DNA of 64,000 nt from Corallococcus exiguus (GCF_009909105.1 NZ_JAAAPK010000002.1:221827-285826), one strand, 5' to 3'. Shown: positions 16,201 through 64,000, counted from the first letter of the stretch. Made by a program: numbers and translations. Notes: a model not told the origin generated them from the letters alone.

Positions 16201-16247
16201 GGCTTTCCTCGTGTCGTGAACTGGGAACAACAGGGCCAGGTCCGCGC

Positions 16248-24843: not shown

Positions 24844-24852
24844 GAGGCGACC

Positions 24853-29063: not shown

Positions 29064-29066
29064 GGT

Positions 29067-30016: not shown

Positions 30017-30027
30017 CGCGCCCCCCG

Positions 30028-30606: not shown

Positions 30607-30633
30607 GCGCGCCGTTCCCCCGTCGGTCCGCCG

Positions 30634-47810: not shown

Positions 47811-49769
47811 GTGATTCGCGAGATCCTCAGCGGACTGCTATGGCAGGGCCGGGTGGCCTTGCGCAGCGGCGACGTGCGCGTCTTCGCCGCGCATGGCTAC
47901 GTGGATGAAGGCTACCGGCCTTCGCGCGTGCCATTCCTCTCCGTTGTCGGCCCGCTGGGCTTGTTCCCCGAACCCGAGCGAGAGAACGGCCGCACGGGCG
48001 TCGCCACCTTCCGTGTGCCGGGCCACCTTGTCGGCAGGCCTCGCGCTTCCGCGGACAGCGTGCCGCCCAATGGCTCGCTCAAGCTGCGCCTGGATGGCCG
48101 CGCCACCGTCACCCTCACGGGGTTGCCGGGCGGCTCGTTTGCTTCCACCGCGACGGGCCCCGCGCTCGCTGACGCCATCAACGCGCGGCTGGCGGATGCG
48201 CTCACCGGTGGACTCTTCCAGGAGCCCACGGGCGCGCCGCTCACGGACCCGTTGCTGCTGGAGGCGCTCGCTGGCGTCATCGCGCGCTGGGACGTGGAGG
48301 GGAGCCGGCTCGCGATCAGCTCCGACGCGGGCATCCCCTCCATGGAGTTCCGCTCCAGCGTGGAGGTGCTGCCCGTCGCTGGTGGCATCGAGGGCCCTCT
48401 GGGCCTGGAGCCTCCGGAGCGCTCTCAAGAGGGCAGGGTGTTCCTCAGCAAGATCCGCGCGCCCAAGGCCATGGCCATCGACGTGCAGGTGGACCTGTGG
48501 GCGGGCTCGCAGGTGGACCTGGCGTCCATCATGGACACGGTGGCGCTCTCCATCCCCACGCGCGGGCAGCTGGTGCTGCGCCCGTCGCTGCTGGCCGAGG
48601 ACGTGCCCGAAGGCGCCACGACGGTCCGCCTGCTGACGCGCGGTGAGCCCACCACGGCTCTGTCCCTGGTGCACCTGGAGGCCAGCGACCAGAACCTGGA
48701 GCGCGCGCGCGGCGGACGCGTGGACCTGACGCCCGGCGCGTCCTTCCTTCCCACCGCCGAGGGCCTGCGCCTGTCCGGCACCGGCACCGCCTCCGTCCTC
48801 GTCTACCCGATGCCCGCCGTGCCCGACCCCTTCCACGCCGACAATCCGGCCCCGGACGGGCTGGCGCTGTCGGTGGGGCTGCGCGTCGCCGCTGGCGCCG
48901 TGGCCGCGCAGTCGCTGCCGGTGGCCGTGCTGATGGCGCAGGGGCAGCCCGTGCTGCGGCTCATCGTCCGCTACGAGCAGGTGGACACCCGGCTCATGGG
49001 CGAGGTGGTGGCCACCGCGACGCTGGCGCAGGCCACCGGGACGCAGGTCGCGGAGACGCGCTGGCGGCTTCCGGTGGAGCGGCTGGAGGCCGGCGTGGTG
49101 CTGCACGCGCGGCTGGAGGCGGGGGAGGGCGTGGTGTGGCTGTCGGCGGACGGGGTGCCGCAGCCGCTCCAGGATGCGGAGGCCACGCCCGCGCCGCCCG
49201 TCGCCGCGCCGGGCGTCACCGTCGCCGCGAGCGACATGGTGCTCACGCTGGGGGCGCAGACGGGCACTCCGCTGGACTTCACGGTGGACCACGTGCACCT
49301 GGTGGCGGAGCCCGTGGGGCCGTTGGATCCGGCGCTGCGCCGCTCCGTCACGGCGGCCTCGCGCCTCAAGCCCGGTGACGTGGTGGTGCTGGGCTCGAGC
49401 GACGACGGCTACCGCGTGGGCAAGCAGCGCTTCCAGGCGCTGGTGCTGGGGCTGGATGGCGACCGCGTGACGCTCAGCCGTCCCGTGGAGGGCGCCTGGG
49501 CCCGGGGCCGCACGCTTGTGTTCCAGGAGGAGTGCTTCTTCTTCCAGACGCAGCTGCGCCGCCGCGACGACCTCTTGAACCACCTGTACCGCTGCTGCGT
49601 GGACTACCGGGTCTCCGCGCTGATGGACGAGCCGAACGCGCGCAGCACCGCCCGCCTCGTCGAGACGCCGCGGGTGGACCTCATCGCGCGCGGTGCTGCG
49701 CGAGGCGCCAGCGGCCATCCGGGAACATCTGTCACCGAAGTCGATACCGCCAGGCGCGGGACCATCTGA
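47811..49769 (+). CDS. hypothetical protein (652 aa) immediately upstream of eCIS sheath gene
   Basis: GTG start after GGAGGG; ends 16 nt before the sheath gene RBS, so probably co-transcribed. No motif recognised. AT-rich tract (47633-47660) lies upstream. Confidence 0.5.
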   Translation: MIREILSGLLWQGRVALRSGDVRVFAAHGYVDEGYRPSRVPFLSVVGPLGLFPEPERENGRTGVATFRVPGHLVGRPRASADSVPPNGSLKLRLDGRATVTLTGLPGGSFASTATGPALADAINARLADALTGGLFQEPTGAPLTDPLLLEALAGVIARWDVEGSRLAISSDAGIPSMEFRSSVEVLPVAGGIEGPLGLEPPERSQEGRVFLSKIRAPKAMAIDVQVDLWAGSQVDLASIMDTVALSIPTRGQLVLRPSLLAEDVPEGATTVRLLTRGEPTTALSLVHLEASDQNLERARGGRVDLTPGASFLPTAEGLRLSGTGTASVLVYPMPAVPDPFHADNPAPDGLALSVGLRVAAGAVAAQSLPVAVLMAQGQPVLRLIVRYEQVDTRLMGEVVATATLAQATGTQVAETRWRLPVERLEAGVVLHARLEAGEGVVWLSADGVPQPLQDAEATPAPPVAAPGVTVAASDMVLTLGAQTGTPLDFTVDHVHLVAEPVGPLDPALRRSVTAASRLKPGDVVVLGSSDDGYRVGKQRFQALVLGLDGDRVTLSRPVEGAWARGRTLVFQEECFFFQTQLRRRDDLLNHLYRCCVDYRVSALMDEPNARSTARLVETPRVDLIARGAARGASGHPGTSVTEVDTARRGTI

Positions 49770-49785
49770 AACCAGGAGGATGAAC

Positions 49786-52107
49786 GTGGCTGAGCGACTG
49801 CATCCGGGCGTCTATGTCGAGGAAATCAGTGCCGGTGCGCGCCCCATCGAAGGGGTGGGCACGTCCACGGCGGCGTTCGTCGGACGCACGGCGCGAGGCA
49901 TCCCGGCCCTGGCCTCGTTCGTCACCGGCTTCGCCGAGTACGAGCGGGCCTTTGGCGGACACGAGCCCGGGGAGGCGGGCCTCGTCGCGCAGGCGGTGGA
50001 GGCCTTCTTCGATTCGGGCGGGCGGCGCGCCTACGTCGTGCGCGTGCTGCCCTCCGACGCGGTGGGCGGCGTGTCCACGCCCCTGGTCGCCAGAGCGGGC
50101 GGCAGCCTCAACGCCCTCACGTTCCTGGCGCGGGGCGCGGGCGAGTGGTCCGACTACTTGCGCGTCAACGTGAGCGACTCCCTCAACTTCCCCAGCGAGG
50201 CGTTCCGCGTGGAGGTGATGTGGACGGAGGCCGGGGCCACGCGCCGCCTGGAGACGTTCGAGGACGTGCGCATGGACCCGTCCAGCGAGGACTATGTCGG
50301 CGACCGCATCAACGACATCTCCCGCTACCTCCGCGTGCGCGACGAGTTCCAGGTGGCGCTCGCCGCGAGGGCACCCGGCGCGGTGCTCGTCCCGGGCGTG
50401 CCTCCCCGGCTCAAGGCCGCCGTGCTGGCCAGCACGAAGTACAGCCTCTATGACGGCGGCAAGCTCCAGGTCTCCGCCTGGGACGAGGCCCAGCCGGACC
50501 TGCCCCGCACGACGCTGGACGTCTCCATCACCCAGGCCCTGGTGGTGGCCGCCGTGCCGGCCGCCGCGTTCGTCAACGGCCGAGCGCAGCTGACCGCCAC
50601 GGAGCTCAAGGCCTTCCTCACCCAGGCCGTTACCGCGGCGGGTCTCACCAACACCTTCGTCATCGGAGGCACGGACTCGCCGGAGATTTCGCTGAAGGTG
50701 GCCACCGGGCCCACGCTCACCATCCCCAAGCCCACGGGCGCGACGTACGACCTGGACCCGGAGGACGCGAAGGTCACCGTGGGCTCGCCGAGCGGCACCA
50801 CGGTGGTGCCCATCCCCATCCTGGCGGTGGACAAGGGCGCGGTGACGCCCGCGGAGTTGAACCACTCGCTGAGCGTGGCGCTGGTCGGCAAGGTCGCGTC
50901 GGTGGTGACGGATGCGCAGGGCAACACCGTCATCACGGGCCTGGCCACGGCGGCGGGCACCTCCACGCTGTCGCTCTCCGCCACCGGCTTCACCGGCACC
51001 GCCGCCGCCGGCACGGCGGGCACGAGCGCGGAGTCCTTCGACGGGCTCCAGCTCTCCATCAGCGAAACGCTCCAGCCCACGGTGCCTACCATGCTCCGGC
51101 AACTGGGCTTCGCGCCGCGCGCACGTGGTTACTCGGATGATTCGCCCGCGAACCCGGTGGTGCGGCCGTCTTCTGTGACGAACCTGCGCCTCCTGGGCGG
51201 CGACGACGGCGCGGGCCTCCTGGACACGTCCGACTTCGCGGGCGACGCGAAGCTGCGCACGGGCTTGCACGCGCTGGACACGGAGGACGTCAACATCGTG
51301 GCGCTGCCCGGCAAGAACGAGGTGTCGTTCATCGCCGCGGGCGTCGCGTACTGCGACAACCGGGGCGACTGCTTCTTCCTCGCGGACGGCCCCGGCGGCG
51401 TGGACAAGGACTTCGCGGTGGTGCCGGACGACGCGAAGCAGTTCGTGGAGGGGTTGCCCTCGCGCTCGAAGAACTCGGCCATGTTCTACCCGTGGATCCG
51501 CGTGGCGGACCCCGTGGGCGTGGGCCGCAATCCCACGCGGCTGGTGCCTCCGTCCGGCCACGTGGCGGGCCTCTTCGCGCGCACGGACACCACACGCGGC
51601 GTGTGGAAGGCGCCCGCGGGCATCGAGGCTTCTCTCGCCAATGCGCTGGGCCTCCAGTACCCCGTCATCGACGCGGAGCAGGATCTGCTCAACCCGGCGA
51701 GCCTCAACTGCCTGCGCCAGTTCCCCGGCGTGGGACTCGTGTCGTGGGGCTCGCGCACGCTGGGGCCGGAACCCGAGTGGCGTTACATCCCGGTGCGCCG
51801 CACCGCGCTCTTCCTCAAGGAGTCGCTGAGGCGCGGCCTGATGTGGGCGGTGTTCGAGCCCAACGACGAAGAGCTCTGGGGCCGCATCCGCGTCGCCATC
51901 GAGTCGTTCATGCTGGGGCTGTTCCGGCAGGGCGCGTTCCAGGGCAGCACGCCGGAAGAGGCCTTCAGCGTCGTCTGCGACCGGAGCACCAACCCGCAGG
52001 AGAACGTGGACGCGGGCATCGTCACCGCGCAGGTGGCGTTCGCGCCGCTGAAGCCCGCGGAGTTCGTGGTCATCGAAATCAGCCAGAAGAGCCTGCTGGC
52101 GGCCTGA
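49786..52107 (+). CDS. phage-tail-like contractile sheath protein (eCIS/PLTS sheath, Afp2/Pvc2-like), long form
   Basis: N-terminus AERLHPGVYVEEISAG (sheath PGVYVEE motif). Conserved C-terminal sheath domain ...GLVSWGSRTL...IPVRRTALFLKESLRRGLMWAVFEPNDEELWGRIRVAIESFMLGLFRQGAFQG.... AGGAGG RBS. Start could be ATG 49780 or GTG 49786. Confidence 0.85.
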   Translation: MAERLHPGVYVEEISAGARPIEGVGTSTAAFVGRTARGIPALASFVTGFAEYERAFGGHEPGEAGLVAQAVEAFFDSGGRRAYVVRVLPSDAVGGVSTPLVARAGGSLNALTFLARGAGEWSDYLRVNVSDSLNFPSEAFRVEVMWTEAGATRRLETFEDVRMDPSSEDYVGDRINDISRYLRVRDEFQVALAARAPGAVLVPGVPPRLKAAVLASTKYSLYDGGKLQVSAWDEAQPDLPRTTLDVSITQALVVAAVPAAAFVNGRAQLTATELKAFLTQAVTAAGLTNTFVIGGTDSPEISLKVATGPTLTIPKPTGATYDLDPEDAKVTVGSPSGTTVVPIPILAVDKGAVTPAELNHSLSVALVGKVASVVTDAQGNTVITGLATAAGTSTLSLSATGFTGTAAAGTAGTSAESFDGLQLSISETLQPTVPTMLRQLGFAPRARGYSDDSPANPVVRPSSVTNLRLLGGDDGAGLLDTSDFAGDAKLRTGLHALDTEDVNIVALPGKNEVSFIAAGVAYCDNRGDCFFLADGPGGVDKDFAVVPDDAKQFVEGLPSRSKNSAMFYPWIRVADPVGVGRNPTRLVPPSGHVAGLFARTDTTRGVWKAPAGIEASLANALGLQYPVIDAEQDLLNPASLNCLRQFPGVGLVSWGSRTLGPEPEWRYIPVRRTALFLKESLRRGLMWAVFEPNDEELWGRIRVAIESFMLGLFRQGAFQGSTPEEAFSVVCDRSTNPQENVDAGIVTAQVAFAPLKPAEFVVIEISQKSLLAA

Positions 52108-52670
52108 TGCCCACGCCCGTCCCCGCCAACGCCCGCAACCCGCTGCGGACCTTCCAGTTCCGGCTCCGGATGAGCACGTCCGCGGCCGGCGACTACGTGG
52201 CGGGAGTGCGCACCGTGTCCGGCCTGTCCGTCAGCGTGGGCGCCTATGAGACGTGGGAGGGCGGCAACAACCTGCACCGCTACGCGCAGCCCCACAAGGT
52301 GAACTGGGAGCCGCTCGTGCTGGAGCAGGGGCTGGCGCTGGACGACACGCTGGAGCGCTGGGCGCGCGCGGTGCTGGAGTTCGCACGCACCGGCAAGGCG
52401 CCCGGCGAGCCGGTGAAGCGCGACCTCTTCATCGACGTGTGGGACGCCTACGCGCACCCCACGGCCGTGCCGCCGCCCGGAGGCATGGAGGCGCGCATCC
52501 GCAGCTTCCACGTGCACAACGCGTGGGTGAGCAAGCTCCACGCCCTGCCCAAGCTGGACGCCATGGCGGGCGAGGTGGCGCTCCTGACGCTGGAGCTCAC
52601 CCACGAGGGCTGGGAGCCGGTGCCCCGGCCCGTGCTGTCCATGCCCGCGACGAGCCTCCCGACGCCCTGA
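52107..52670 (+). CDS. phage-tail tube protein (T4 gp19-like; eCIS inner tube, Afp1/5-like)
   Basis: 187 aa, ATGA-coupled to sheath. NPLRTFQFRLRM...GVRTVSGLSVSVGAYETWEGGNN...EPLVLEQGL matches the gp19 tube family pattern. Confidence 0.8.
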   Translation: MPTPVPANARNPLRTFQFRLRMSTSAAGDYVAGVRTVSGLSVSVGAYETWEGGNNLHRYAQPHKVNWEPLVLEQGLALDDTLERWARAVLEFARTGKAPGEPVKRDLFIDVWDAYAHPTAVPPPGGMEARIRSFHVHNAWVSKLHALPKLDAMAGEVALLTLELTHEGWEPVPRPVLSMPATSLPTP

Positions 52671-52694
52671 CGTCCCCATTCGAGGAGTGAAGCC

Positions 52695-53186
52695 ATGCCC
52701 CGATTCGTCGAATCCACGAAGCGCGACCCGTACCGCAACTTCAACTTCCGCGTGCTCTTCAACAACATCGAGGTGGCCGCGTGCCGGAAGATTTCCGGCA
52801 TCACCGGCACCGTGGAGGTGGTGAAGTTCCGCTCCGGCAACAGCCCGTCCTCCGTGGACGAGCTGTCCCCGGGCCGGGTGCACTACGAGCCCCTCACACT
52901 GGAGGCGGGCCTCACCCAGGACACGACGTTCCGGGACTGGGCCACCCAGCTCATCCGGCACGAAGCCACGCCCGGATTCCGCTCGGCGGAGCCGGACTTC
53001 CGGCGCACCGTGGAGATTCTCGTCTTCGACCTGGACTTCAACCGCGCGGTGAAGAAGTTCGTGCTGCGCAACGCGTGGGTCTCGAAGTTCACCGCGATGT
53101 CGGAGCTGGCCGCGGAGGCGAACGAGATCCTCATCGAGTCCCTGGAGGTCCAGCACGAGGGCTTCACGCTGGAGCCGGTGGTCTGA
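52695..53186 (+). CDS. phage-tail tube protein, second paralog (gp19-like)
   Basis: 163 aa. DPYRNFNFRVLFNNIEVAACRKISGITGTVEVVKFRSGN...EPLTLEAGL is the same fold signature as the preceding gene. Confidence 0.8.
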   Translation: MPRFVESTKRDPYRNFNFRVLFNNIEVAACRKISGITGTVEVVKFRSGNSPSSVDELSPGRVHYEPLTLEAGLTQDTTFRDWATQLIRHEATPGFRSAEPDFRRTVEILVFDLDFNRAVKKFVLRNAWVSKFTAMSELAAEANEILIESLEVQHEGFTLEPVV

Positions 53187-53187
53187 C

Positions 53188-54063
53188 GTGCTCCTGGAAC
53201 CTCCCATCCCGGTGCTGCTGCCGCACGGCCTCTTCGACGAGGACGGCCGCTGCCACCGCCAGGGCGAGCTGCGCCCGCTCACCGGCCGCGAGGAGTGGGC
53301 GCTGGCCCAGGCCGGCGAGCGTCCCGGCCCGCGCGCGGTGAGCGGGTGGCTGGCGGCGTGTCTGGGACGGTTGGGGGATTACTCGCGCGTGGACGAGGAG
53401 CTGGCGGCCTGCCTCACGCGCGGAGACCGGCACCACCTGGCGCTGCACCTGCGGGCCCGGATGTACGGGGACCGGGCGACGCTGGTGGCGCGCTGCCCCG
53501 CGCCTGGATGCGAGGCGATGGCGGACGTGGACGTGCGGCTCTCCGCGCTCTCTCCGGAGCGGGTGGACGCGGCGCCGGAGGTGCTCATTGTGGCGCTGCC
53601 AGAGGGACGGGCGGAGGTGCGCGAGCCCACGGGCGAGGACGACGCGCTGCTCGCGGAAGTGCAGGGCACGCGGGAGGAGCGGTCCGCGCTCCTGTGGTCG
53701 CGGCTGGTGGTGGTGGATGGGCAGACGCTGACGCCTTCCGCGTGGCTGGCCCTGCCCGCGCGCTCACGGCACGCGGTGGCGCTGGCGTTGGCGGACGGCA
53801 CGAGCGCGCCGGATCTGGGGCTCCTGGCGCGCTGTCCGAAGTGCGCCGCGTGGTTGGAGCTGGAGCTGGATCCGTTCGCACTGCTGGCTCGCGAGCTGCG
53901 GGGTGGGGCGGCGCGATTGGAGACGGAGGTGCACGTGCTGGCCTTCCACTACCACTGGTCGGAGGCGGACATCCTGGCCCTGCCGCGGGCCCGGCGGTGG
54001 CGCTACCTGGAGCTGCTTCGCAACGAGCTGGAAGGCCGTCCGCTGGTGGATGGCTGGAGCTGA
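53188..54063 (+). CDS. hypothetical eCIS-associated protein (291 aa)
   Basis: GTG start 2 nt after tube gene stop. Cys pairs (CPAPGCEAM...CPKCAAW) suggest a zinc-ribbon-like element. No family assigned. Confidence 0.45.
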   Translation: MLLEPPIPVLLPHGLFDEDGRCHRQGELRPLTGREEWALAQAGERPGPRAVSGWLAACLGRLGDYSRVDEELAACLTRGDRHHLALHLRARMYGDRATLVARCPAPGCEAMADVDVRLSALSPERVDAAPEVLIVALPEGRAEVREPTGEDDALLAEVQGTREERSALLWSRLVVVDGQTLTPSAWLALPARSRHAVALALADGTSAPDLGLLARCPKCAAWLELELDPFALLARELRGGAARLETEVHVLAFHYHWSEADILALPRARRWRYLELLRNELEGRPLVDGWS

Positions 54064-54081
54064 CGAGAGGACGCGCACGCC

Positions 54082-54294
54082 ATGGCCCCACCCCCGGTGC
54101 AAGGACAGGTCGGACTCACCCGCCGCGAGCTGGAGCGTGAGCTCGCGTGGATGCTGCGCAGCGTGCCGGACAACCCCAAGGAGTTCGTGAAGCTGTTCAC
54201 CCAGACGGTGGTGGCGCTGATGGACAAGAACAACGAAGCCATTGCCCGGAGCCTCGCCCAGCGCGAGCCGCCCGGCGCCCGGGGCAACGGATGA
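54082..54294 (+). CDS. small hypothetical protein (70 aa), eCIS locus
   Basis: Short ORF, ATGA-coupled to the next gene. Helical, acidic/basic mix. Possibly an assembly factor. Low confidence. Confidence 0.3.
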   Translation: MAPPPVQGQVGLTRRELERELAWMLRSVPDNPKEFVKLFTQTVVALMDKNNEAIARSLAQREPPGARGNG

Positions 54295-55019: not shown

Positions 55020-55029
55020 AGAGACGGCC

Positions 55030-56495: not shown

Positions 56496-56869
56496 TGGGG
56501 CGCGGCCTGAACTTCCCCTTCCAGCTGGGAGACCTGGGCACGCCGCGCACGGTGGGGCCCTCGCAGGTCATCCGCCAGCAGTTGGAGCAGCTGCTCTTCA
56601 CGCTGCCCGGGGAGCGGGTGAACCGGCCGCGCTTCGGGTGCGGCGTGCAGCGGATGGTGTTCGGCGCCGCGAGTCCGGAGGCCGCCGCCACGGCCGAGTA
56701 CATCATCCGCCTCAATGTGCAGGAGTTCATGCGCGACCAGGTGCGCCTGGACGCGGTGAAGGTGAGCGCCGAGGACGCGACGCTCTACGTGGACATCCTC
56801 TACACGCTGCTGGCGACGGGCGAGGAACACGCGGAGTTGTTCCGCCGGGACCTGGAGGCGCCGCCGTGA
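56495..56869 (+). CDS. gp25/GPW-like baseplate wedge protein
   Basis: 124 aa. MGRGLNFPFQLGDLG...QQLEQLLFTLPGERVNRPRFGCGV... is the canonical GPW_gp25 start and core. Confidence 0.8.
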   Translation: MGRGLNFPFQLGDLGTPRTVGPSQVIRQQLEQLLFTLPGERVNRPRFGCGVQRMVFGAASPEAAATAEYIIRLNVQEFMRDQVRLDAVKVSAEDATLYVDILYTLLATGEEHAELFRRDLEAPP

Positions 56870-59800
56870 GCGCGCGGGTCCTGACATTGCCGCTGGAGGC
56901 GTCGCTCGCGGAGGCACAGGCCGCGTTGGAGACCACTCCGCCGGGCGAGGTGGAGTGGGTGCTGCCCGTGGGCGAGGGCGTGCTCACTGCGGACTTCGTC
57001 ATCGGAACGCCCGCGCACGCGCTGCGGCTCACGGGCGGCCCGGGCGTGACGCTGAAGCTCGACGGCGGGACGCTCGAAGTCACCGGGCTCGTCACCGGAC
57101 TGTCGGGCGTGACGGTGGTGGCGTTGGACGCCGGGTTGGTCCTCCTGGGGGCGCGGGTGGAGGTGTCGGACGTCACGGTGAGCGCCACGGCGTCGGGGGA
57201 TTGCGCGGCGATGAGCGTGGAGACGCCGGACGGCACGGTGGTCATCGACTCGCTCACGGTGACGCAGGCGAAGGGCGAGGTGGCGACGGGGCTCCGGTTG
57301 CTGGCGACGGAGGCCCGCGTCACGGGCCTGTCCGTGGACGGCGTGAGGGCCACGGTGGGGGAGGCCTTTGGCGTGCGGGCGGTCTGCCAACGTTCGCAGT
57401 GGGCGGACGTGTCGGTGCGCAACGTCATGGGCATGGAGATGGGCGTGGGCCTGGAACTGGCGGGCTTCACCCATGCGGACCTGTCCGGGCTCACGGTGTC
57501 GCAGGTCTCCGGGCCGAACGCGACCGGAGCTCGGGTGCTGGTGGCTCGGGAGGAGGGCGAGGGCCTGTCCATGGTGGACGTGTCCGTGAGCGAGGTGGAT
57601 GCGTTCGGGGTGCAGTGGAGCATCGGGCTCTTGGTGGCCTCGGCGGGCGCGCTCCAGGTGCGTGGCTTCACCGTGCAGCGGGTGCAGGGCGGGTTCCCGA
57701 TGGGCGTGCTCGCGCTGGGCGGGCGGAGCATCGAAGTGGCCATGGGCCAGGTGGAGGATGTCTCCGCCGGAACGCGCGCCACGGGCATGCGGGTGCTGGG
57801 GGGACCTTCGCTGGAGCCGGTGGTGGTTCGTGACGTGGAGGTGAGCCGTGTGTCCGCGGCGCCTGTTCCGGTGTCCGCGCAGCCCGAGGCGTCCTGGTCG
57901 GACTGGCTCATCGCCGCATTGGATGCACTGTCTGCTTCGGTCGTGGGGCCGCTGACGCTGCCTGCGTTTCCCACCGATGCGGACGTCGTGGGCCTGCACG
58001 TGGCCGCGCCGCTGGGCGGCCTTGAGCCGGTGCTGGACGTGGGCACGCCGGGGGAGATCGCCATCGAGGACTGCTCCCTCTTCGTCATCACCGGCACCGC
58101 GTTGCAACTGGAGGGCGGACTGCGCACGGCGCTGGTGCGACGCACCGAGGCCTGGACGTCCGTGCATGCGGGCTGGCTCCAGGCGGAGCAGCTGTTGCTG
58201 GCACAGCTCACCTGGCACCGGCATGCGCATGGGCTGCGGCTGGGGCCTGGAGAGATTCGCGCCTACGACTCGCTCTTCACGGCCATCGTGGGCGCGCCGT
58301 TCGTGCTGGAGCCGGACGCGGAGCTGTCTGCCTCTCCCGCGCTGTTCGCTCAGGGCGCGGCCCCGCCGTTCCTGGAGGTGGGGCCCCTGCCGTACCGGAC
58401 GCCGGGGACTCCGGAGGTTCCGCCGGTGTTGCTCACTGGCGGCCTGCCGCCTCCGGAGACCGTGGATCTGCGGCTGGTGCCGGATGCGGCCATCTCGCGC
58501 GCGGCCGTGCCGGTTCCGGGCGACGGTCCTCGCGACCCGGCGCCATTCATTGGGGCGTGGGCTCCGGACGTGGTGCCGGGATGTGACGTGAGGGATCCTC
58601 AGCCGCGCCCGTGGCTCGCGGCCCCGGAGCGTCCGGCGCCTGGCGCGCTGGTGGACTACCAGGCTCGCGACGCGCAGTCGTTGCTGGCGGTGATGCTGGA
58701 GCGGGCCCGCACGGTGATGGCGCCGTGGGAGGACCGGGGGCCCGCGGACTTCACGACCATGTTGCTGGAGGCCGTGGCCGCGCAGCTGGACTCGCTGGCG
58801 TACCAGCAGGAGCGCGCGGTGGTGGAGGGCTTCCTGGAGGACGCCCGGTTGCGGCGCTCCGTGGAGGACCACGCGCGTGGACTGGATTACGTGCCGGATC
58901 CGGGGCTCTCCGCCACGGTGATGCTGCGGTTCCGGTTGGATCCGGAGGCGCTCGCGGCGCTGGTGAAGGCGCGGTTGGATGAACTGAACCTGTCGGTGCT
59001 TCCGCCCGGCACCACCGCGCTGGAGTTCCTTACCGGTGGCGGCGTGCTGGAGATTCCCGCCGAAACGCTGGTGGCGAATGTCTCCACGGACGAGCACTCG
59101 CTGGTGTTCGTCACCGAGTCGCCCCTGTCGTACTTCCCCCGGCTGGAGATCGTGACGCTCGCGGAGTCCGTGCAGCCTGGGGACACGGGCGCGACGCTCG
59201 CGGGGCTGTACCCGGAGCTGGATCCCGGCCGGTGGCTGATCCTCTACCGGGGCCGCGGCGAGAGCGGGCACGTGGTGCGAGTGACGTCTGTAGCGCTCGC
59301 CACCGATACGACCTTCGTCGGGTGGGATCCCCGCAGGTTCGCGCCGGAGGTGTTCCTGGCGCCGGGAGACCCCGCACCCGGGCCTCGCGCGACGGTGCTG
59401 GGCAACGTGGTGCCCGCGCATCACGGGCTGCCGGTGACGCCGCTTCCAGAGGGCTTCGAGGCGGACTCGGCGGAGCCCTTCGCGCGCAGCCTCGCGCAGT
59501 GGCGTGCGTTGCTGTCCCCGGTCGTGGACGGCAGCGAGGAGCGCGAGTTCGCCCTGCCGTTCCATCCGGTCAGCGTCCAGGCCTTTGGGTATCCACTGCC
59601 GGAGGAGACGTCGCGGCGCGGGACGCCCCAGCTCCAGGTGAGCGTGGAGGACGACCCCTGGACGCTGGTGGACGACCTGTCCGTCCAGGGGCCGGGGGAT
59701 GAGGTGTTCGTGCTGCGCGCGACCCCCACGGGTGGCGCCAGCCTGCGCTGGGGCGACGGCGTCAACGGCGCCGTGCTTCCGCCCCGGGAGACGACGCTGG

Positions 59801-60633
59801 GACTGTCGCTGCGCGTGGGGCTGGGGACGGTGGCCAACGTGGGGGAGGGCGTGCTCACGCGGTTGCTCCAGGTGCCGTTGGATCCGCAGCGCTCCGCGTC
59901 CGCGGGCGAGCTGCTGGCCCAATCGATGGACGACGTGCGCGCGTTGGTGCGCGTGGACAATCCGCTGCCCGCGGTGGGGGGGCGCGACGCGGAGTCGCTC
60001 GACTCCATTCGCTATCGTGCACCGGCGGGTGTGTCGCAGCCGCTGTCCGCCGTCACGGTCGACGACTACGTGCGGATGCTCCAGCAGATGCCGGAGGTGG
60101 CGGGGGCCTCGGCGCGCGCCGTGGACCGGGACCTGCGCACGGTCATCCGTGTGACGGTGTTGCTGCGCGACGAGGACACGCTCGACCGCGACGAGCTGCT
60201 GCGCCGATGGGCGGGGGTGCGCAGTCGCCTGGAGGAATTCCGCCTGCTGGGCGTGGACGTGGAAGCGCTGCCGCCCAAATGGGTGCCGCTCGACTTGGAC
60301 CTGGAGGTGGATGCCTCGCCGCATGCGCAGGCCGACCAGGTGCGCGACGCGGTGGTGGGCGCCATCGCTGGGGACGGCGGCCTGTTGGATCCGGACCGCT
60401 CTGGCCTGAACGGCGATGTGCAGCTCGCGGACCTGTACCAGGCGGTGCTGCGCGTCCCGGGCGTGACGGCGGTGCGGGTGAAGCGCTTCCGCCGGCTGGA
60501 GCCCCAATCGCAGGAGCGGCTGGAGGCGGGCGTCATTCCCATTGGACCCGACGAGGTGGCCACTGCTCGGGGTGGTTACTGGCCGGGTTCGGAAGGCGTC
60601 CTCACCGTGCAGGTGTGCGGAGGGCTGCGATGA
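56866..60633 (+). CDS. baseplate-J-like (gp6/Afp11-like) putative baseplate assembly protein with about 550-aa N-terminal parallel beta-helix-like extension
   Basis: GTG start overlapping gp25 stop (GTGA). The N-terminal third shows repetitive V/G/T-rich beta-helix-like segments (GVTVVALDAGLVLLGARVEVSDVTVSATASG...). The C-terminal about 650 aa follows the putative-baseplate-assembly / Baseplate_J pattern (...GGRDAESLDSIRYRAPAGV...AVTVDDYVRM...). Confidence 0.7.
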   Translation: MSARVLTLPLEASLAEAQAALETTPPGEVEWVLPVGEGVLTADFVIGTPAHALRLTGGPGVTLKLDGGTLEVTGLVTGLSGVTVVALDAGLVLLGARVEVSDVTVSATASGDCAAMSVETPDGTVVIDSLTVTQAKGEVATGLRLLATEARVTGLSVDGVRATVGEAFGVRAVCQRSQWADVSVRNVMGMEMGVGLELAGFTHADLSGLTVSQVSGPNATGARVLVAREEGEGLSMVDVSVSEVDAFGVQWSIGLLVASAGALQVRGFTVQRVQGGFPMGVLALGGRSIEVAMGQVEDVSAGTRATGMRVLGGPSLEPVVVRDVEVSRVSAAPVPVSAQPEASWSDWLIAALDALSASVVGPLTLPAFPTDADVVGLHVAAPLGGLEPVLDVGTPGEIAIEDCSLFVITGTALQLEGGLRTALVRRTEAWTSVHAGWLQAEQLLLAQLTWHRHAHGLRLGPGEIRAYDSLFTAIVGAPFVLEPDAELSASPALFAQGAAPPFLEVGPLPYRTPGTPEVPPVLLTGGLPPPETVDLRLVPDAAISRAAVPVPGDGPRDPAPFIGAWAPDVVPGCDVRDPQPRPWLAAPERPAPGALVDYQARDAQSLLAVMLERARTVMAPWEDRGPADFTTMLLEAVAAQLDSLAYQQERAVVEGFLEDARLRRSVEDHARGLDYVPDPGLSATVMLRFRLDPEALAALVKARLDELNLSVLPPGTTALEFLTGGGVLEIPAETLVANVSTDEHSLVFVTESPLSYFPRLEIVTLAESVQPGDTGATLAGLYPELDPGRWLILYRGRGESGHVVRVTSVALATDTTFVGWDPRRFAPEVFLAPGDPAPGPRATVLGNVVPAHHGLPVTPLPEGFEADSAEPFARSLAQWRALLSPVVDGSEEREFALPFHPVSVQAFGYPLPEETSRRGTPQLQVSVEDDPWTLVDDLSVQGPGDEVFVLRATPTGGASLRWGDGVNGAVLPPRETTLGLSLRVGLGTVANVGEGVLTRLLQVPLDPQRSASAGELLAQSMDDVRALVRVDNPLPAVGGRDAESLDSIRYRAPAGVSQPLSAVTVDDYVRMLQQMPEVAGASARAVDRDLRTVIRVTVLLRDEDTLDRDELLRRWAGVRSRLEEFRLLGVDVEALPPKWVPLDLDLEVDASPHAQADQVRDAVVGAIAGDGGLLDPDRSGLNGDVQLADLYQAVLRVPGVTAVRVKRFRRLEPQSQERLEAGVIPIGPDEVATARGGYWPGSEGVLTVQVCGGLR

Positions 60634-63146
60634 GCCGCGTTCCCTCCACGCACCAGGCGCTGACGCATGAGCAGCTCCGCACCCGGCTGGGCGAGTCGGC
60701 GCGCATCGTCTTCACCCGGCTGGACGAGGCGCCCACGTGGAATCCGCTCGCGTACGCGGCGCCATCGTCGGTGGACCTGGGGCGGGGACTGCTGGACAGC
60801 GTGGCGCTCGCGCTGCACGTGCTGTGGACGTATCAGCAGGCGTGGGCGGAGGAGGGCTTCCTCGCCACCGCGCGGCTGGAGGACTCCGTCTCCAAGCTGC
60901 TCGGGCACATCGGTTATCGGCCGAGTCCGGGCACCGCGGCGGTGGGGCTCCAGCACTTCCGCTGCAAGGCGAACGTGCGCGGCACGCTGTCGCCGGGAAC
61001 GGCGGTGAATTCAGCGGCGGAGGGGGAAGAGACCGCCGCTGTGTTCGAGACGCTCGCGTCGCTGCGCCTGCTGCCGGAACTCAACGAACTGCGTGCGTTC
61101 CTGCCTCCTCTGGTTGGAGCGGGGACAGGAGCTGGAACCGGGACGGAGACGGGCGGAGGAGCGGGAACAGGTGGAGGCACGGGGACGGGTGGTGGGACCG
61201 GTGCGCCTTCCGGCGAGGCGGGTGAGCCAGGGGCTCCGGCTCCCACGGGCGGCATCTTCGGGCCCGGCTCGGTGGTCGCGGGGCTCCAGGATCGCATCGA
61301 GGTGCAGCGCCACGGTCCGCTGGAGGAACGGCAGGTGGCTCGAGCGAAGCAGGATGCTCGCAAGCTGGCGTCGTTGATGAAGACGTTGGACCTGGGCGGG
61401 GATGCGGCGTGCAAGAGCACGCTGGACGCGCTCTGCGAACAACTGTGCGAGGCCCAGAAGGTCGTGGCGCAGGCCGTGCCTCCGCCCGGCCGTCCCGTGG
61501 GTGCGTTGTCCGAGTCGCAGGAGATCCTCGCCCGCCAGCTCCGCAACTTGCAGAAGCGGCAGGCGGACGCACTGGCCGCGTTGGAGGAGGCGCTGGCCCC
61601 GTGCGCGGACGAGGACCCGGCCGTGCACGCGGTCCGGTTGGACAAGATGGTCACGTTCCTGGATGCCTTCGTGAACAGCCTCATCCAGGAGGCGCGGGAT
61701 CAACTCGTCATCCTCAAGGGCAGTGAGGCGCTGAACCGGGCGGACCAGGCCTTCGGCGCGGACGCGGGAGTGGCCCGGCCGTTGGGCGTGGCGGCATCCG
61801 GTACGGACACGCTCTATCTGCTGCCGCTGACGGATGCCTCCGGGCTCACCTCGCAGGAACCGCCGGTGCGGCCGGGAGACTGGTTCGTGCTGGCCGAGGA
61901 CGTGGAGCGTCTGGGCCCCGGAGGCGCGAAGGGCACGGAGCGGATCTACCGCGAAGCACTGCGAGTGCTGCGTGTCCGCACGGAGGTTCCGCCCGGCCAG
62001 CGAACGCCGATGACGCAGGTGACGTTCCAGCCGCCGCTGTCGCGCGCGTACGCGTTGGACGGCGTGGTGCTGCTGGGAAACAACACGCTCGTCAGCGAGG
62101 GCTCCACGGTGGAGGAGGTCGCCGTGCCTTCGCTGGATCTGCGCACGGTGTCGCTGCTGCATGGGCCGGTGACCTGGCTGCGCGACCCGAGCCGCGCGGG
62201 AGGCCGCCGGCCGGAGGTGTCCCTGACGGTGGGGGGACGCGCGTGGCATCCGGTGGATTCTTTGTTGGACGCCGCGCCTGATGAGCTGGCCTTCGCGGTG
62301 GAGTCGCTGCCGGCCGGGGCCGCGCGGCTGCGCTTCGGGGAAGGGGACCACGGTTCGGCGTTGCCCCTGGGCACGGAGGTGCGGGTCCGCTACCGGGTGG
62401 GCAGAGGGACGGGAGGCAACCGGGCCGCGCTGCGGCTGCTGGCGATGGCGAGCCCGCATCCCTGCGTGGAGAAGACGTTCAACCCGCTGCCGCTGGCCGG
62501 AGGAACGGATCCGGAGGCACCGGCGCTGGCGCGCGTGCGAGGGCCCGCCACGGTGGGCGCGATGGACCGCGCCGTGTCGCTCTCGGACGTGCAGGCGCTG
62601 ACGTTGGTGTTCGACGGCGTGCACCGCGCGAACGTGTTCCGGGATGGCGTGCGCCGCCGTTCGTTGAAGGTGGTGGTGGCCGGGCCGGAAGGAGCAGCCC
62701 TGGGCGCAGCCGATCTGGAAGAACTCCACGCGCATCTGGCGGCACGGGTGGCGCCGAAGGTGGAGCTGAACCTGATCAACCGGCAGCGTGTGGAAGTGCG
62801 GCTGCGGGTGCTGCTGCGCGTGGTGAAGGGGGCTGATCCGGTCGCGGTGCTTCAAGAGACGCGCCTGCGGCTGGGCGTGGACCGAGACCCGGAGCGTGAG
62901 CCTGGTCTGCTGGATCCGGATCGCGTGGAGCTGGGACAGGATCTGCAGCTGTCGGACGTATACGGCGCGCTCGCGGAGATCACGGGCCTGCGCTCGGTGG
63001 TGGTGCAGCGGCTGCATCGCGAAGGCACGCCGCCAGCACTCTTCGAGCGCATCGTCACCGCGCCCGGCGAGCTGCTCGCCTGGGCCCCGCCGTCCGGAGA
63101 AAGCGATGGCGTCGCGCTCACCTACGAGGAGGCCCAGGATCTATGA
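60630..63146 (+). CDS. second baseplate-J-like / putative baseplate assembly protein (838 aa)
   Basis: ATGA-coupled. N-terminal LEDSVSKLLGHIGYRPSPGTAAVGLQHF fits the Baseplate_J N-terminal segment. Central Gly/Thr repeat (GAGTGAGTGTETGGGAGTGGGTGTGGG), then a coiled-coil and C-terminal domains. Confidence 0.6.
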   Translation: MSRVPSTHQALTHEQLRTRLGESARIVFTRLDEAPTWNPLAYAAPSSVDLGRGLLDSVALALHVLWTYQQAWAEEGFLATARLEDSVSKLLGHIGYRPSPGTAAVGLQHFRCKANVRGTLSPGTAVNSAAEGEETAAVFETLASLRLLPELNELRAFLPPLVGAGTGAGTGTETGGGAGTGGGTGTGGGTGAPSGEAGEPGAPAPTGGIFGPGSVVAGLQDRIEVQRHGPLEERQVARAKQDARKLASLMKTLDLGGDAACKSTLDALCEQLCEAQKVVAQAVPPPGRPVGALSESQEILARQLRNLQKRQADALAALEEALAPCADEDPAVHAVRLDKMVTFLDAFVNSLIQEARDQLVILKGSEALNRADQAFGADAGVARPLGVAASGTDTLYLLPLTDASGLTSQEPPVRPGDWFVLAEDVERLGPGGAKGTERIYREALRVLRVRTEVPPGQRTPMTQVTFQPPLSRAYALDGVVLLGNNTLVSEGSTVEEVAVPSLDLRTVSLLHGPVTWLRDPSRAGGRRPEVSLTVGGRAWHPVDSLLDAAPDELAFAVESLPAGAARLRFGEGDHGSALPLGTEVRVRYRVGRGTGGNRAALRLLAMASPHPCVEKTFNPLPLAGGTDPEAPALARVRGPATVGAMDRAVSLSDVQALTLVFDGVHRANVFRDGVRRRSLKVVVAGPEGAALGAADLEELHAHLAARVAPKVELNLINRQRVEVRLRVLLRVVKGADPVAVLQETRLRLGVDRDPEREPGLLDPDRVELGQDLQLSDVYGALAEITGLRSVVVQRLHREGTPPALFERIVTAPGELLAWAPPSGESDGVALTYEEAQDL

Positions 63147-63262
63147 GCCCCGCCTCGACGCGCCCGACCGGCCCCCGCCCCAGGCCCGCGGACATGGGGT
63201 CAGTCTCCGTGGCTGAGAAAGAGGGAACCCTGCGGGGACTCCCGGCTGCGGCGCACCGCATG

Positions 63263-63400
63263 AACCTGTCCGACAGTCGGACAGGATTAAAGGACCCAGG
63301 CCGGGGACCTCCGTGCCAGCCGAGCCGTGAAAACCTGTCCGACAGTCGGACAGGTTTGGAGGACCGAGGCGGGGGACCTCTGCTCCAGCCGAGCAGTGAA
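63263..63400. repeat. two tandem ~69-bp repeat units each containing a perfect 21-bp palindrome (CCTGTCCGAC-A-GTCGGACAGG)
   Basis: Unit 1 63263-63331, unit 2 63332-63400. Palindromes at 63265-63285 and 63334-63354. Intergenic between the baseplate gene (stop 63146) and the gpI-like gene (63509). ORF 63143-63511 across it is rejected. Confidence 0.6.
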
Positions 63401-63508
63401 AGTTGGGACCGTGTCGGGCGGAAGGTGCACGGCACTGATGTTCGGGCGCTTGGCGTGGCGCGTTACGGCGTGGCCGCGACGCTTCCGGTCGTGGAGGGGC
63501 AGGCCCCA

Positions 63509-64000
63509 TGAGCCCTCCTTCTCAGCGGCTGAGCCAGCTCCTCCCGGGTCTCTACTCGGCGCGGGACTTCACGCTCGCGGATCAGCCGCTCCTCAAGCTG
63601 CTCGCCGTGCTGGGCATGGAGCTGGATGCGTTCGCGCGCGCGGTGGATCAGCTCTGGGATGATCATTTCGTGGAGCGTGCGGGTCCGCAGGCGCTGCCGT
63701 TGCTCGCGGAGTTGATGGGCGCACGGCTGATCACCGACGACCCTCGCGTGCAGCGCGGTGTGGTGGCTCGCGCGGTGGCGTGGCGCCGACGGAAGGGCAC
63801 GCTCGCGTCGCTGGAGGAGGTGCTCTCCGTCACCAGCCTCTGGGATGCGGAAGTGGACGAGTCCTTCCGTTCGCTGCTGGAGACCCAGGACCTCAACGAC
63901 TTGCTGCCCTGGCGCGGCCGCAGCGCGGTGATGTGGGATCCCATCGGCCTCGCGGATCCGCTCACCCGCCGCTCGCCTGGCATCGAGCGTCCCCGCGATG
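63509..64000 (+). CDS. phage tail protein I (P2 gpI)-like baseplate/tail protein, N-terminal fragment (continues beyond window)
   Basis: Translation MSPPSQRLSQLLPGLYSARDFTLADQPLLKLLAVLGMELDAFARAVDQLWDDHFVERAGPQALPLLAELMGARLI... matches the conserved N-terminus of the P2 gpI tail-protein family. No stop before window end, so absent from the ORF table. Confidence 0.55.

What the first reader, a model, noticed from the sequence alone, without database searches (positions are those of the whole stretch)
47811..64000. Phage-tail-like extracellular contractile injection system (eCIS/PLTS) locus, not a prophage
The block contains a tail sheath, two gp19-like tube proteins, a LysM-like protein, gpD, gp25, two baseplate-J-family proteins and a gpI-like protein. 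The genes are tightly packed with serial ATGA/GTGA start-stop overlaps from 52107 to 60633. There is no capsid, portal, terminase, integrase or lysis gene in 16 kb. This is the Afp/PVC/MAC-type architecture, and the remaining components (fibre, tape measure, AAA ATPase, cap, payload) presumably lie beyond the window end. Payload and target are unknown.
Basis: partly seen in the sequence, partly recalled or inferred. Interest (0 to 1): 0.75.

Follow-up and report, generated by a model that had tools for sequence, protein, structure and literature searches.

The report
Myxobacterial phage-tail-like injection system operon
This stretch of a Corallococcus (predatory soil myxobacterium) chromosome is the first 16 kb of a roughly 41-kb headless phage-tail "syringe" operon of a recently catalogued, experimentally unstudied subtype that here lacks the usual assembly ATPase and standard cap gene.

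Summary
Positions 47811-64000 carry 13 same-strand, tightly coupled genes, and HMMs confirm a sheath, two gp19-type tubes, a CIS_tube protein, gp25, two Baseplate-J/TIGR02243 proteins and a Tail_P2_I protein. The LysM and gpD calls are weaker. No head, packaging, integrase or lysis gene is present.

Orthologous Corallococcus loci (about 90% identical) continue with a 2,537-aa DUF6519/beta-helix fibre, a gp5-type spike, a weak tape-measure candidate and five unknowns. The island then ends. The same roughly 23-gene order recurs in Sorangium, Actinomycetota and Alphaproteobacteria with unrelated flanks, so this is a contractile injection system and not a prophage. It belongs to the "eBAP5" eCIS subtype catalogued in 2026.

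- The cap is probably not beyond the window. It is the unrecognised first gene (47811-49769), whose model combines a tail-terminator fold with a lectin-like jelly roll.
- No AAA+ ATPase exists in the Corallococcus island, although Sorangium's copy has one.
- No payload gene is evident here; relatives carry DUF4157 giants.
- "Extracellular" is unproven. The closest solved sheaths come from cell-anchored (haloarchaeal) and cytoplasmic (Streptomyces) systems.

Moderately interesting variant of a known kind.

The parts
47811..49769 (+). g1, 652 aa: probable tail terminator/cap fused to a ConA/LamG-type lectin-like jelly-roll domain. It is the first gene of the operon.
49780..52107 (+). g2, 775 aa: contractile sheath with a large N-terminal extension.
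   Evidence: Phage_sheath_1 and Phage_sheath_1C. AGGAGG ribosome-binding site. PDB hits: 9ezm 8e-89, 8bky 2e-81, Pvc2 8e-42, Afp3 7e-40, pyocin 7e-12, T4 gp18 1e-9.
52107..52670 (+). g3, 187 aa: inner tube protein (gp19/Afp1 type).
   Evidence: PF06841 3e-20. TIGR02241 at its cutoff. 1-nt TGATG overlap with the sheath stop.
52695..53186 (+). g4, 163 aa: second tube protein or tube adaptor (Afp5/Cis5-like).
   Evidence: PF06841 2e-29. TIGR02241 99.9 bits; CIS5_fam 52 bits, which is below its cutoff.
53188..54063 (+). g5, 291 aa: conserved unknown with invariant CPxxxC...CPxC cysteine pairs (putative zinc ribbon). It sits where phage tails encode assembly chaperones or the tape measure.
   Evidence: No significant family or PDB hit. 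45-51% identity across phyla with invariant Cys pairs.
54082..54294 (+). g5b, 70 aa: small helical conserved protein, a possible Afp6/Cis6-like plug (inferred from position only).
   Evidence: GC3 0.89 ORF. 66-67-aa orthologues sit at the same position in L018, L019 and L020. No family hit.
54291..55019 (+). g6, 242 aa: tube-initiator-type protein (CIS_tube domain).
   Evidence: PF19266 1e-6, 29.1 bits against a cutoff of 27. ATGA overlap with g5b.
55030..55308 (+). g7, 92 aa: LysM / tail-X-like small baseplate protein (weak).
   Evidence: Phage_tail_X 19.6 bits (cutoff 22) and LysM 18.9 bits (cutoff 20.9).
55308..56495 (+). g8, 395 aa: baseplate hub (P2 gpD / gp27-like).
   Evidence: PF05954 21.8 bits, below the 30.1 cutoff. 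The Sorangium orthologue carries an unmarked PF05954 hit.
56495..56869 (+). g9, 124 aa: gp25/gpW baseplate wedge protein.
   Evidence: PF04965 4e-14.
56866..60633 (+). g10, 1,255 aa: large baseplate wedge protein with a J/gp6-type C-terminus and an N-terminal extension of about 900 aa.
   Evidence: Baseplate_J 25.6 bits against a cutoff of 21.1. TIGR02243 2e-38 over residues 925-1208.
60630..63146 (+). g11, 838 aa: second J/gp6-type baseplate protein (Afp11/Cis11-like).
   Evidence: TIGR02243 2e-43. PHROG baseplate wedge 1e-13. PDB 9gtp_1K, a Baseplate J-like protein, 2e-6.
63147..63507 (.). Non-coding insert splitting the g11/g12 junction. It holds two tandem 69-bp units, each with the palindrome CCTGTCCGACAGTCGGACAGG.
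   Evidence: The insert is absent from L007 and L008, where g11 and g12 overlap by ATGA. There is no Rfam family match.
63508..64000 (+). g12 N-terminus (the full protein is 1,213 aa in orthologues): P2 gpI-type baseplate protein, the presumed fibre dock.
   Evidence: Tail_P2_I 1.7e-8. Full-length orthologues in L004 and L013.

Best explanation
The finding is the 5' 16 kb of a roughly 41-kb, roughly 23-gene, single-strand operon in a Corallococcus chromosome. In C. coralloides DSM 2259 the operon starts at COCOR_03262 and its fibre gene is COCOR_03275. It encodes a headless contractile phage-tail-like particle of the eCIS/CIS superfamily, in the subtype whose fibres carry the DUF6519 (eBAP5) anchor.

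Inferred working model:
- Baseplate: hub g8, gp25 g9, the J-type wedges g10 and g11, and the gpI-type g12. It is tipped by a separately encoded gp5-type spike (d3).
- It carries giant 2,537-aa beta-helix fibres (g13).
- It nucleates a tube (g6 as initiator; g3 and g4) surrounded by the sheath g2.
- Growth is stopped and capped by g1, a terminator-fold protein that also displays a lectin-like jelly roll at the distal end.
- When the fibres bind a target surface, the sheath contracts and drives the tube and spike into the target.

Shown: gene identities, operon structure, conservation, and the absence of head genes and of an ATPase.

Inferred: the cap role of g1; the tape-measure role of d5 (or g5); extracellular release; and the nature of any cargo. 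The unknowns d6-d9 are the only candidates in Corallococcus, while relatives carry DUF4157 giants.
For: - HMM identification of all tail parts.
- Translational coupling throughout: for the window, for L013.
- The sheath is closest to solved CIS sheaths and not to phage or pyocin.
- No close phage or viral contig.
- The gene order g1 to d8 is identical in Corallococcus, Sorangium, Cryptosporangium, Micromonospora, Mycolicibacterium, Mesorhizobium and a Rhodospirillaceae MAG, each with unrelated flanking genes.
- DUF6519 is an eCIS fibre anchor placed downstream of Tail_P2_I genes (PMC12923769).
- g1 has a terminator plus lectin fold.
- No multi-pass membrane protein was found: a 19-residue hydropathy scan gave at most one hydrophobic window per protein, in g10, g13 and d5.
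- DUF4157/eCIS_core proteins end the locus in four relatives.
Against: - Everything past 64000 is read from orthologous loci in other Corallococcus species (g12 N-terminus 87-96% identical, g13 orthologues about 90%), not from this genome.
- The Afp15-type ATPase is absent here, and no DUF4255 cap is detectable by sequence.
- The LysM and gpD hits in the window are below Pfam thresholds.
- The tape measure is only a weak PHROG hit (3.7e-4).
- The d6 model was too poor to interpret (pLDDT 53).
- No cargo has been identified.
- The nearest experimentally studied relatives are not extracellular.
Confidence: 0.78

Rival explanations
1. It is a payload-free R-type tailocin (phage-tail bacteriocin). 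The particle is released by lysis and kills competing or prey bacteria simply by puncturing and depolarising the envelope, with specificity set by the giant fibre. No cargo or loading ATPase would be needed.
For: - No ATPase and no identifiable toxin gene in the Corallococcus island.
- The hub and spike are split into gpD-like and gpV/gp5-like genes, and the baseplate is gpJ/gpI-type, as in P2 and R-pyocins.
- A giant fibre is present.
- The host is a predatory myxobacterium.
Against: - The sheath and tube are of CIS type and only distantly related to pyocin (7e-12 against 1e-40 to 1e-89).
- The operon has no holin or endolysin cassette.
- Relatives with the same structural genes carry DUF4157 effector-type giants, and in Sorangium an Afp15-like ATPase. 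This suggests cargo delivery is ancestral.
- Five conserved unknowns (d6-d9 and g5) could be cargo or loading factors.
Confidence: 0.15
2. It is a non-released CIS. It would be either cytoplasmic and free-floating, mediating regulated cell death or development as in Streptomyces, or anchored to the inner face of the envelope and firing outward like the haloarchaeal or subtype-iv T6SS.
For: - The two best solved sheath matches are the haloarchaeal membrane-bound CIS (9ezm, 8e-89) and the Streptomyces cytoplasmic CIS (8bky and 8bl4, about 1e-80).
- Myxobacteria undergo developmental lysis (background knowledge).
- No release or lysis genes are present in the operon.
Against: - A 2,537-aa beta-helix fibre on an eBAP5 anchor argues for recognition of an external surface. 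By contrast, Streptomyces CIS are described as fibre-less (PMC12923769).
- No multi-pass membrane anchor is encoded in the operon. Only the non-conserved, divergent DUF1622 neighbour is a membrane protein, and it is not conserved in other phyla.
- The distal cap carries a lectin-like domain.
Confidence: 0.2
3. It is the tail module of a defective or complete myovirus prophage whose head genes lie elsewhere or have been deleted.
For: All recognisable genes are phage-tail homologues. A tyrosine recombinase lies 6 kb upstream in the M. mageritense locus only.
Against: - The same roughly 23-gene set, with no head, packaging or replication genes, is conserved across three phyla with different flanks.
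- No phage in 50,697 records has a sheath covering 80% or more of the query, and IMG/VR has none.
- There is no tRNA or integrase in the window.
- GC content matches the surrounding chromosome.
Confidence: 0.02

Closest known systems
eBAP5 (DUF6519-fibre) eCIS subtype catalogued by the Levy laboratory (Nat Commun 2026, PMC12923769)
   Same: - The fibre has an N-terminal DUF6519 and a pectin-lyase-type beta-helix ('mega pectin lyase' class).
- It lies directly downstream of a Tail_P2_I baseplate gene.
- The baseplate is Tail_P2_I-based.
- It occurs in Actinomycetota and Pseudomonadota.
- M. mageritense and Corallococcus genomes appear in their genome tables.
   Different: - That work catalogues fibres only. 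Its main text does not mention the ATPase (0 occurrences), and none of the passages I read describes the cap or the nine downstream genes.
- I could not confirm that this exact Corallococcus locus is in their eBAP5 list, because the files were truncated. The Corallococcus entries I saw were labelled eBAP3, which points to a second, different eCIS in the genus.
Afp (Serratia entomophila) / PVC (Photorhabdus), canonical class I eCIS
   Same: A sheath, gp19-type tubes, tube-initiator/LysM module, gp25, a gp6/J-type wedge, a fibre and a tape-measure-like gene, arranged as a head-less single-strand operon. Sheath homology is 1e-38 to 1e-42.
   Different: - One 775-aa sheath gene instead of three of 350-450 aa.
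- Hub and spike on separate genes instead of a fused VgrG-like Afp8.
- A gpI (Tail_P2_I) protein instead of an Afp12-type protein.
- No PAAR found.
- No Afp15 ATPase and no DUF4255 Afp16.
- The cap candidate is encoded first and not last.
- A fibre about five times longer.
- No Afp17/18-type toxin genes.
Streptomyces coelicolor / venezuelae cytoplasmic CIS (PDB 8BKY, 8BL4, 9GTP; PMC10066040)
   Same: Second-closest solved sheath (2e-81). g11 matches the J-like baseplate chain of 9GTP (2e-6). It is a class II-type gene order with the tube after the sheath.
   Different: Streptomyces CIS are described as fibre-less and act inside the producer, according to PMC12923769 and the abstract of PMC10066040. 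This locus has a giant fibre. Its mode of action is unknown.
Haloarchaeal T6SS-like CIS (Halogeometricum borinquense, PDB 9EZM; PMC11566945)
   Same: Best solved sheath match (8e-89). That paper uses a 'Cis11a' label, which implies more than one Cis11 paralogue, so a duplicated J-type baseplate protein may be shared. DUF4157 proteins are associated with the cluster.
   Different: The archaeal cluster encodes cis1-16 including an ATPase, plus a 6-TM membrane anchor, and fires from the cytoplasmic membrane. No such anchor or ATPase is present here.
R-type pyocin / phage P2 tail
   Same: A separate gpD hub and gpV/gp5 spike, a gpW(gp25)-gpJ-gpI baseplate order, no ATPase, and fibres docked on gpI.
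   Different: Sheath similarity is only 7e-12. The tubes are gp19/TIGR02241 type. There is no lysis cassette or regulator pair. There are many extra conserved genes, and relatives carry DUF4157 effectors.

Membership tests
eCIS core backbone (Chen et al. 2019, PMC6899500: Afp1/5, 2/3/4, 7, 8, 9, 11, 15, 16) | Afp2/3/4-type sheath | tested here: met
   PF04984 and PF17482. Pvc2 8e-42 and Afp3 7e-40.
eCIS core backbone (Chen et al. 2019) | Afp1/5-type tube (gp19 family) | tested here: met
   Two genes with PF06841 at 3e-20 and 2e-29; TIGR02241.
eCIS core backbone (Chen et al. 2019) | Afp7-type LysM / tube-initiator protein | tested here: inconclusive
   CIS_tube passes its threshold in g6 (29.1 against 27). 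The LysM and tail-X signal lies in a separate 92-aa gene, g7, and is just below both cutoffs.
eCIS core backbone (Chen et al. 2019) | Afp8-type VgrG (fused gp27-gp5) spike | tested here: inconclusive
   The function is present but split. The gpD-like hub g8 scores 21.8 bits against 30.1 in the window, and its Sorangium orthologue passes. A separate 395-aa Phage_base_V (6e-24) plus Gp5_C spike occurs in orthologous loci. No fused VgrG was found.
eCIS core backbone (Chen et al. 2019) | Afp9 gp25-like wedge | tested here: met
   PF04965 4e-14.
eCIS core backbone (Chen et al. 2019) | Afp11 Baseplate-J/gp6-like protein | tested here: met
   g10 has PF04865 above its cutoff. g10 and g11 hit TIGR02243 at 2e-38 and 2e-43.
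eCIS core backbone (Chen et al. 2019) | Afp15 AAA+ ATPase in the locus | tested here: not met
   No AAA hit in any operon protein. No Walker A motif in the conserved unknowns. The Sorangium Afp15-like ATPase (PF00004 5e-25) has no tblastn match in the window, L013, L014 or L024. A copy elsewhere in the genome ('split locus') could not be tested.
eCIS core backbone (Chen et al. 2019) | Afp16 / DUF4255 (Pvc16_N) cap | tested here: not met
eCIS (functional definition) | Particles are released and act extracellularly on another cell | not testable with these tools
   Only indirect evidence exists: a giant fibre and no membrane anchor against closest solved relatives that are non-extracellular.
eBAP5-type eCIS subtype (PMC12923769) | Fibre with an N-terminal DUF6519 directly downstream of a Tail_P2_I baseplate gene | tested here: met
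   g12 has Tail_P2_I in the window. In orthologous loci the next gene has DUF6519 at 2.6e-8 plus Beta_helix. The fibre itself lies outside the window.
Myovirus prophage | Capsid, portal, terminase and integrase contiguous with the tail genes | tested here: not met
   None found by Pfam, PHROGs or NCBIfam across the window genes, nor by Pfam across about 25 kb of orthologous downstream sequence. Island ends are defined by non-conserved flanks.
Canonical T6SS | TssB/TssC sheath, Hcp, TssJLM membrane complex, ClpV | tested here: not met
   The operon's sheath is of FI type and not VipA/VipB, and it has no multi-pass membrane proteins. A separate, genuine T6SS cluster lies at 24.8-41.4 kb of the window.
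R-type tailocin | P2/pyocin-type sheath and tube with a dedicated lysis cassette | tested here: not met
   The pyocin sheath scores only 7e-12 against 1e-40 to 1e-89 for CIS sheaths. No holin or endolysin family was detected.

The most novel reading that the evidence does not exclude
Corallococcus and some relatives carry a self-sufficient, ATPase-independent contractile injection system. Its distal cap is a new terminator-lectin fusion, its 2,500-aa beta-helix fibres target prey or competitor cell surfaces, and its cargo or loading factors are the uncharacterised d6-d9 proteins. On this reading it is a predation or competition weapon that assembles and loads without the Afp15-type ATPase thought to be a universal eCIS core component, and it sits 6 kb from a T6SS in the same chromosome.
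Probability: 0.25. Interest if true: 0.65.

Novelty: new variant of a known kind. Interest (0 to 1): 0.45.

Why it matters
Contractile injection systems are being engineered as programmable protein-delivery devices, and their core parts list (eight components including the Afp15 ATPase and the DUF4255 cap) is used both to define them and to find them. A widely conserved lineage that, at least in Corallococcus, lacks both by sequence would be missed by the eight-core-component definition. Instead it has a terminator-lectin first gene, a split hub and spike, and a 2,500-aa fibre. It would also show which components are dispensable. In a predatory myxobacterium it is a candidate prey-killing or kin-competition weapon. 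Its position next to a T6SS contradicts the reported rarity of eCIS and T6SS co-occurrence. None of this subtype has been studied experimentally.

Tried and rejected
1. I first concluded that the whole subtype lacks an ATPase, because the precomputed Pfam column of the look-up of encoding contigs showed '-'. A direct hmmscan showed that the Sorangium 849-aa gene after d6 is an AAA ATPase. I withdrew the claim and restricted it to Corallococcus and L024 after tblastn and Pfam re-tests.
2. d6, d8 and d5 sit at the positions of Afp15, Afp16 and Afp14. d6 has no Walker A and no PDB or family hit, and its AF2 model was too poor (pLDDT 53) to search. d8 shows no Pvc16_N signal even at E = 10 and no similarity to the Sorangium ATPase.
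3. Sequence-profile searches of g1 (full length and N-terminal half), g5, d5, d6 and d8 against PDB sequences gave only noise.
4. Foldseek searches of the g1 model against the PDB and BFVD returned only jelly-roll hits, so they neither confirm nor refute the terminator domain.
5. The concatenated-query homologue search returned g1 and d6 relatives but no d8 relatives.
6. The plasmid collection has no copy of this subtype: there is no g1 match, and the sheath hits belong to other CIS types.
7. The d8-anchored metagenome scan found nothing. The d6-anchored scan gave one informative contig, L024.
8. The exact-sequence cluster look-up for the sheath and g11 failed, so the source strain is not pinned. 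g1 is 98% identical to a C. exiguus entry.
9. No sigma-70 promoter or terminator consensus was found upstream of g1, and no Rfam family matches the g11-g12 insert.
10. I considered a programmed frameshift at the conserved 32-nt d4/d5 overlap. d5 is in the +1 frame relative to d4, not the -1 frame, and d5 has its own conserved N-terminus. I therefore treat it as a plain overlap.
Full report
**Source and context.** The window is about 70% GC. The partial last ORF finds 87-96% identical orthologues only in Corallococcus genomes, and g1 is 98% identical to a C. exiguus entry. The first 14 kb hold housekeeping genes: a translational GTPase, a sigma-54 activator, CarB and others. A T6SS cluster occupies about 24.8-41.4 kb (IglE_N, TssM/IcmF, TssK, VipA, VipB, TssF). 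Upstream of the finding lie minus-strand genes: an AMP-binding enzyme, a PAS histidine kinase and a DUF1622 membrane protein. There is no tRNA in the window.

**Checking the observation.** High GC produces many spurious ORFs, so I chose frames by GC3 and starts by context. Thirteen + strand genes result; coordinates are in the parts list. Pfam confirms the following:
- sheath (775 aa)
- two gp19-type tubes
- a CIS_tube protein
- gp25
- Baseplate_J
- Tail_P2_I

The LysM/tail-X protein (g7) and the gpD hub (g8) fall just under their thresholds. NCBIfam adds TIGR02241 for both tubes and TIGR02243 for both large baseplate proteins. These models were built on 'phage-tail-region' clusters that I recognise, from my own knowledge, as eCIS.

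Six junctions overlap by 1 or 4 nt and the other coding junctions are 1-24 nt. The 122-aa ORF at 63143 is not a gene. No head, packaging, integrase or lysis family hits any ORF.

**Beyond the window.** The genome scan returned orthologous Corallococcus loci. Walking from a homologue search of the next gene gave 27-kb loci from C. coralloides DSM 2259 and C. exercitus SDU142. After g12 (1,213 aa, Tail_P2_I) come:
- g13, a 2,537-aa protein with N-terminal DUF6519 and a right-handed beta-helix
- d1 (113 aa) and d2 (69 aa)
- d3 (395 aa; Phage_base_V 6e-24 plus gp5 C-terminal repeats, a gp5/gpV-type spike)
- d4 (64 aa)
- d5 (536 aa; helical, with one hydrophobic segment and a weak PHROG tape-measure hit at 3.7e-4)
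- d6 (720 aa)
- d7 (404 aa; Pro/Arg-rich and apparently disordered, not called by the source annotation but with a conserved N-terminus)
- d8 (243 aa) and d9 (73 aa)

These assignments rest. All are coupled by overlaps of -1 to -32 nt or by short gaps of 4-31 nt. The flanks after d9 differ between the two species: a 410-aa ORF with no significant Pfam hit plus a minus-strand LRR protein in one, and a metallophosphatase plus a HAD hydrolase in the other. The island therefore ends there. Locus-tag arithmetic (g1 = COCOR_03262, g13 = COCOR_03275) matches my count of 14 genes from g1 to g13.

**Conservation.** The same order recurs, with 33-50% identity for the proteins I aligned or searched, in:
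- Sorangium
- Cryptosporangium
- Micromonospora
- Mycolicibacterium mageritense
- Mesorhizobium
- a Rhodospirillaceae MAG

In every case the g1 homologue (626-686 aa) is the first gene, and the genes upstream of it are unrelated (an NRPS, ABC transporters, a TetR regulator). This pattern, together with the absence of any close phage (best sheath match 39% identity over 54% of its length among 50,697 phage records; none in IMG/VR), excludes a prophage.

**Place among known systems.** Against PDB sequences the sheath scores as follows:
- 8e-89 to the haloarchaeal CIS sheath 9EZM
- about 1e-80 to the Streptomyces CIS sheaths 8BKY and 8BL4
- 1e-38 to 1e-42 to Pvc2, Afp2 and Afp3
- about 1e-36 to the thylakoid-anchored CIS of Anabaena (7B5H) and 2e-34 to the Algoriphagus eCIS (7ADZ)
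- only 7e-12 to R-pyocin and 1e-9 to T4 gp18

It is therefore a member of the Afp/PVC-related CIS superfamily, class II-like. DUF6519 is 'eBAP5', one of five eCIS fibre anchor domains defined in PMC12923769. [quoted passage not shown] Corallococcus and M. mageritense genomes are in its tables. I could not confirm that this exact locus is listed.

**The missing hallmarks.** Chen et al. define an eight-component eCIS core that includes the Afp15 AAA+ ATPase and the Afp16 cap.

- *ATPase.* None of the Corallococcus operon proteins hits an AAA family, and no conserved unknown has a Walker A motif. I initially over-generalised this to the whole subtype. A direct scan then showed that the Sorangium gene following d6 is an 849-aa WHD + AAA ATPase (PF00004 5e-25), with a sub-threshold Pvc16_N signal at its C-terminus. 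The precomputed annotation had shown nothing for it. Using that ATPase as a tblastn probe gives no match in the window, L013, L014 or any other locus. In metagenome contig L024, d6-d7-d8 is followed directly by MsrA, Aat, an epimerase and MatE. The ATPase is therefore variably present in the subtype and absent from the Corallococcus island. The state of four other relatives is unknown, because their loci run off inside a 1,700-2,057-aa post-d8 gene. That gene carries eCIS_core/DUF4157 in three of the four.

**Other deviations from Afp/PVC.**
- The hub (g8, gpD-like) and spike (d3, gp5-like) are separate genes, as in P2.
- No PAAR was found.
- There is one long sheath gene.
- There are two J-type proteins, one of them 1,255 aa.
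- g5 is a conserved 290-aa protein with invariant CPxxxC...CPxC pairs.
- Five conserved 3' genes have unknown function.

**Mechanism and mode of action.** The parts list supports a standard contractile mechanism: baseplate, tube, sheath, cap, fibre-triggered contraction and spike-led penetration. Which compartment it fires in is not settled. The giant fibre, the lectin-like cap and the lack of any multi-pass membrane protein in the operon favour a released, target-binding particle. Against that, the nearest characterised relatives act from the membrane (PMC11566945) or within the cytoplasm (PMC10066040). Cargo is unidentified in Corallococcus. The DUF4157 giants in relatives, with an Imm33-like neighbour in Sorangium, suggest that toxin delivery is ancestral. 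A payload-free, tailocin-like killing mode is a live alternative for the ATPase-less Corallococcus form.

**Verdict.** This is a real contractile injection system and not a prophage. It is a variant of a known kind: a recently catalogued, uncharacterised subtype, here without the Afp15 and DUF4255 hallmarks and with a new terminator-lectin first gene. Interest is moderate (0.45).

Noticed in passing
window 24853-41367: A T6SS gene cluster (IglE_N lipoprotein, TssM/IcmF-like 1,234 aa, TssK, VipA, VipB, TssF-like) ends only about 6.4 kb upstream of the CIS operon. A section heading in Chen et al. [quoted passage not shown] The adjacency is not conserved in other phyla.
   Followed up: partly
window 63147-63507 (also L001, L002, L004, L006, L013, L014): A 361-bp non-coding insert splits the otherwise ATGA-coupled g11/g12 junction.
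- It holds two tandem 69-bp units, each with a perfect 10-1-10 palindrome, CCTGTCCGACAGTCGGACAGG.
- The palindrome occurs nowhere else in the 64 kb.
- In other Corallococcus loci it is found only in this same gap (1-3 copies, in either orientation).
- It is absent from C. terminator and from a Myxococcaceae MAG.
- The insert is flanked by an imperfect duplication of about 25 bp that regenerates GGAGG plus ATGAGCC for g12.
- A Logan assembly breaks here.
It could be a MITE/REP-like element or an internal attenuator before the fibre genes.
   Followed up: partly
L017 23630-26179 (Sorangium sp. So ce341): The Afp15-like ATPase of the Sorangium copy has a winged-helix N-terminus, one AAA domain and a sub-threshold Pvc16_N (DUF4255) signal in its last 75 residues. 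This hints at an ATPase-cap fusion. It occupies the position held by d7-d9 in the other lineages.
   Followed up: partly
L013 19385-19579 / 19548-21158, and the same genes in L015, L016, L017, L021, L022: The 64-74-aa helical protein d4 ends in a conserved R-R/Q-R-Y-R motif. It overlaps the start of the tape-measure-like d5 by 32 nt (29 nt in Sorangium) in every phylum. d5 is in the +1 frame, so this is not a canonical -1 chaperone frameshift.
   Followed up: partly
window 18994-24852 (- strand): A 1,952-aa protein is built almost entirely of HYDIN/ASH/Cep192-type Ig-like repeats (nine or more HYDIN_VesB_CFA65-like domains). It lies immediately next to the T6SS IglE-like gene.
   Followed up: no
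window 14001-18000: GC content drops to 0.59-0.62 against about 0.70 elsewhere, just upstream of the Ig-repeat gene and the T6SS cluster. This may be horizontally acquired DNA. The genes there have no Pfam hit (for example 16248-17231).
   Followed up: no
L013 23314-24528 (d7); L015 23935-25284: A 404-449-aa Pro/Arg-rich, apparently disordered ORF with atypical codon-position GC is not called in the source annotation. Its N-terminus (…LLxxLDRVLHPL…DFRVxP) is conserved between Corallococcus, Cryptosporangium, the Rhodospirillaceae MAG (L016) and L024, and its start and stop overlap both neighbours.
   Followed up: partly
tool behaviour: The precomputed Pfam column of the look-up of encoding contigs showed '-' for a protein that scores PF00004 at 5e-25 when scanned directly. 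Blanks in that column are not evidence of absence.
   Followed up: yes
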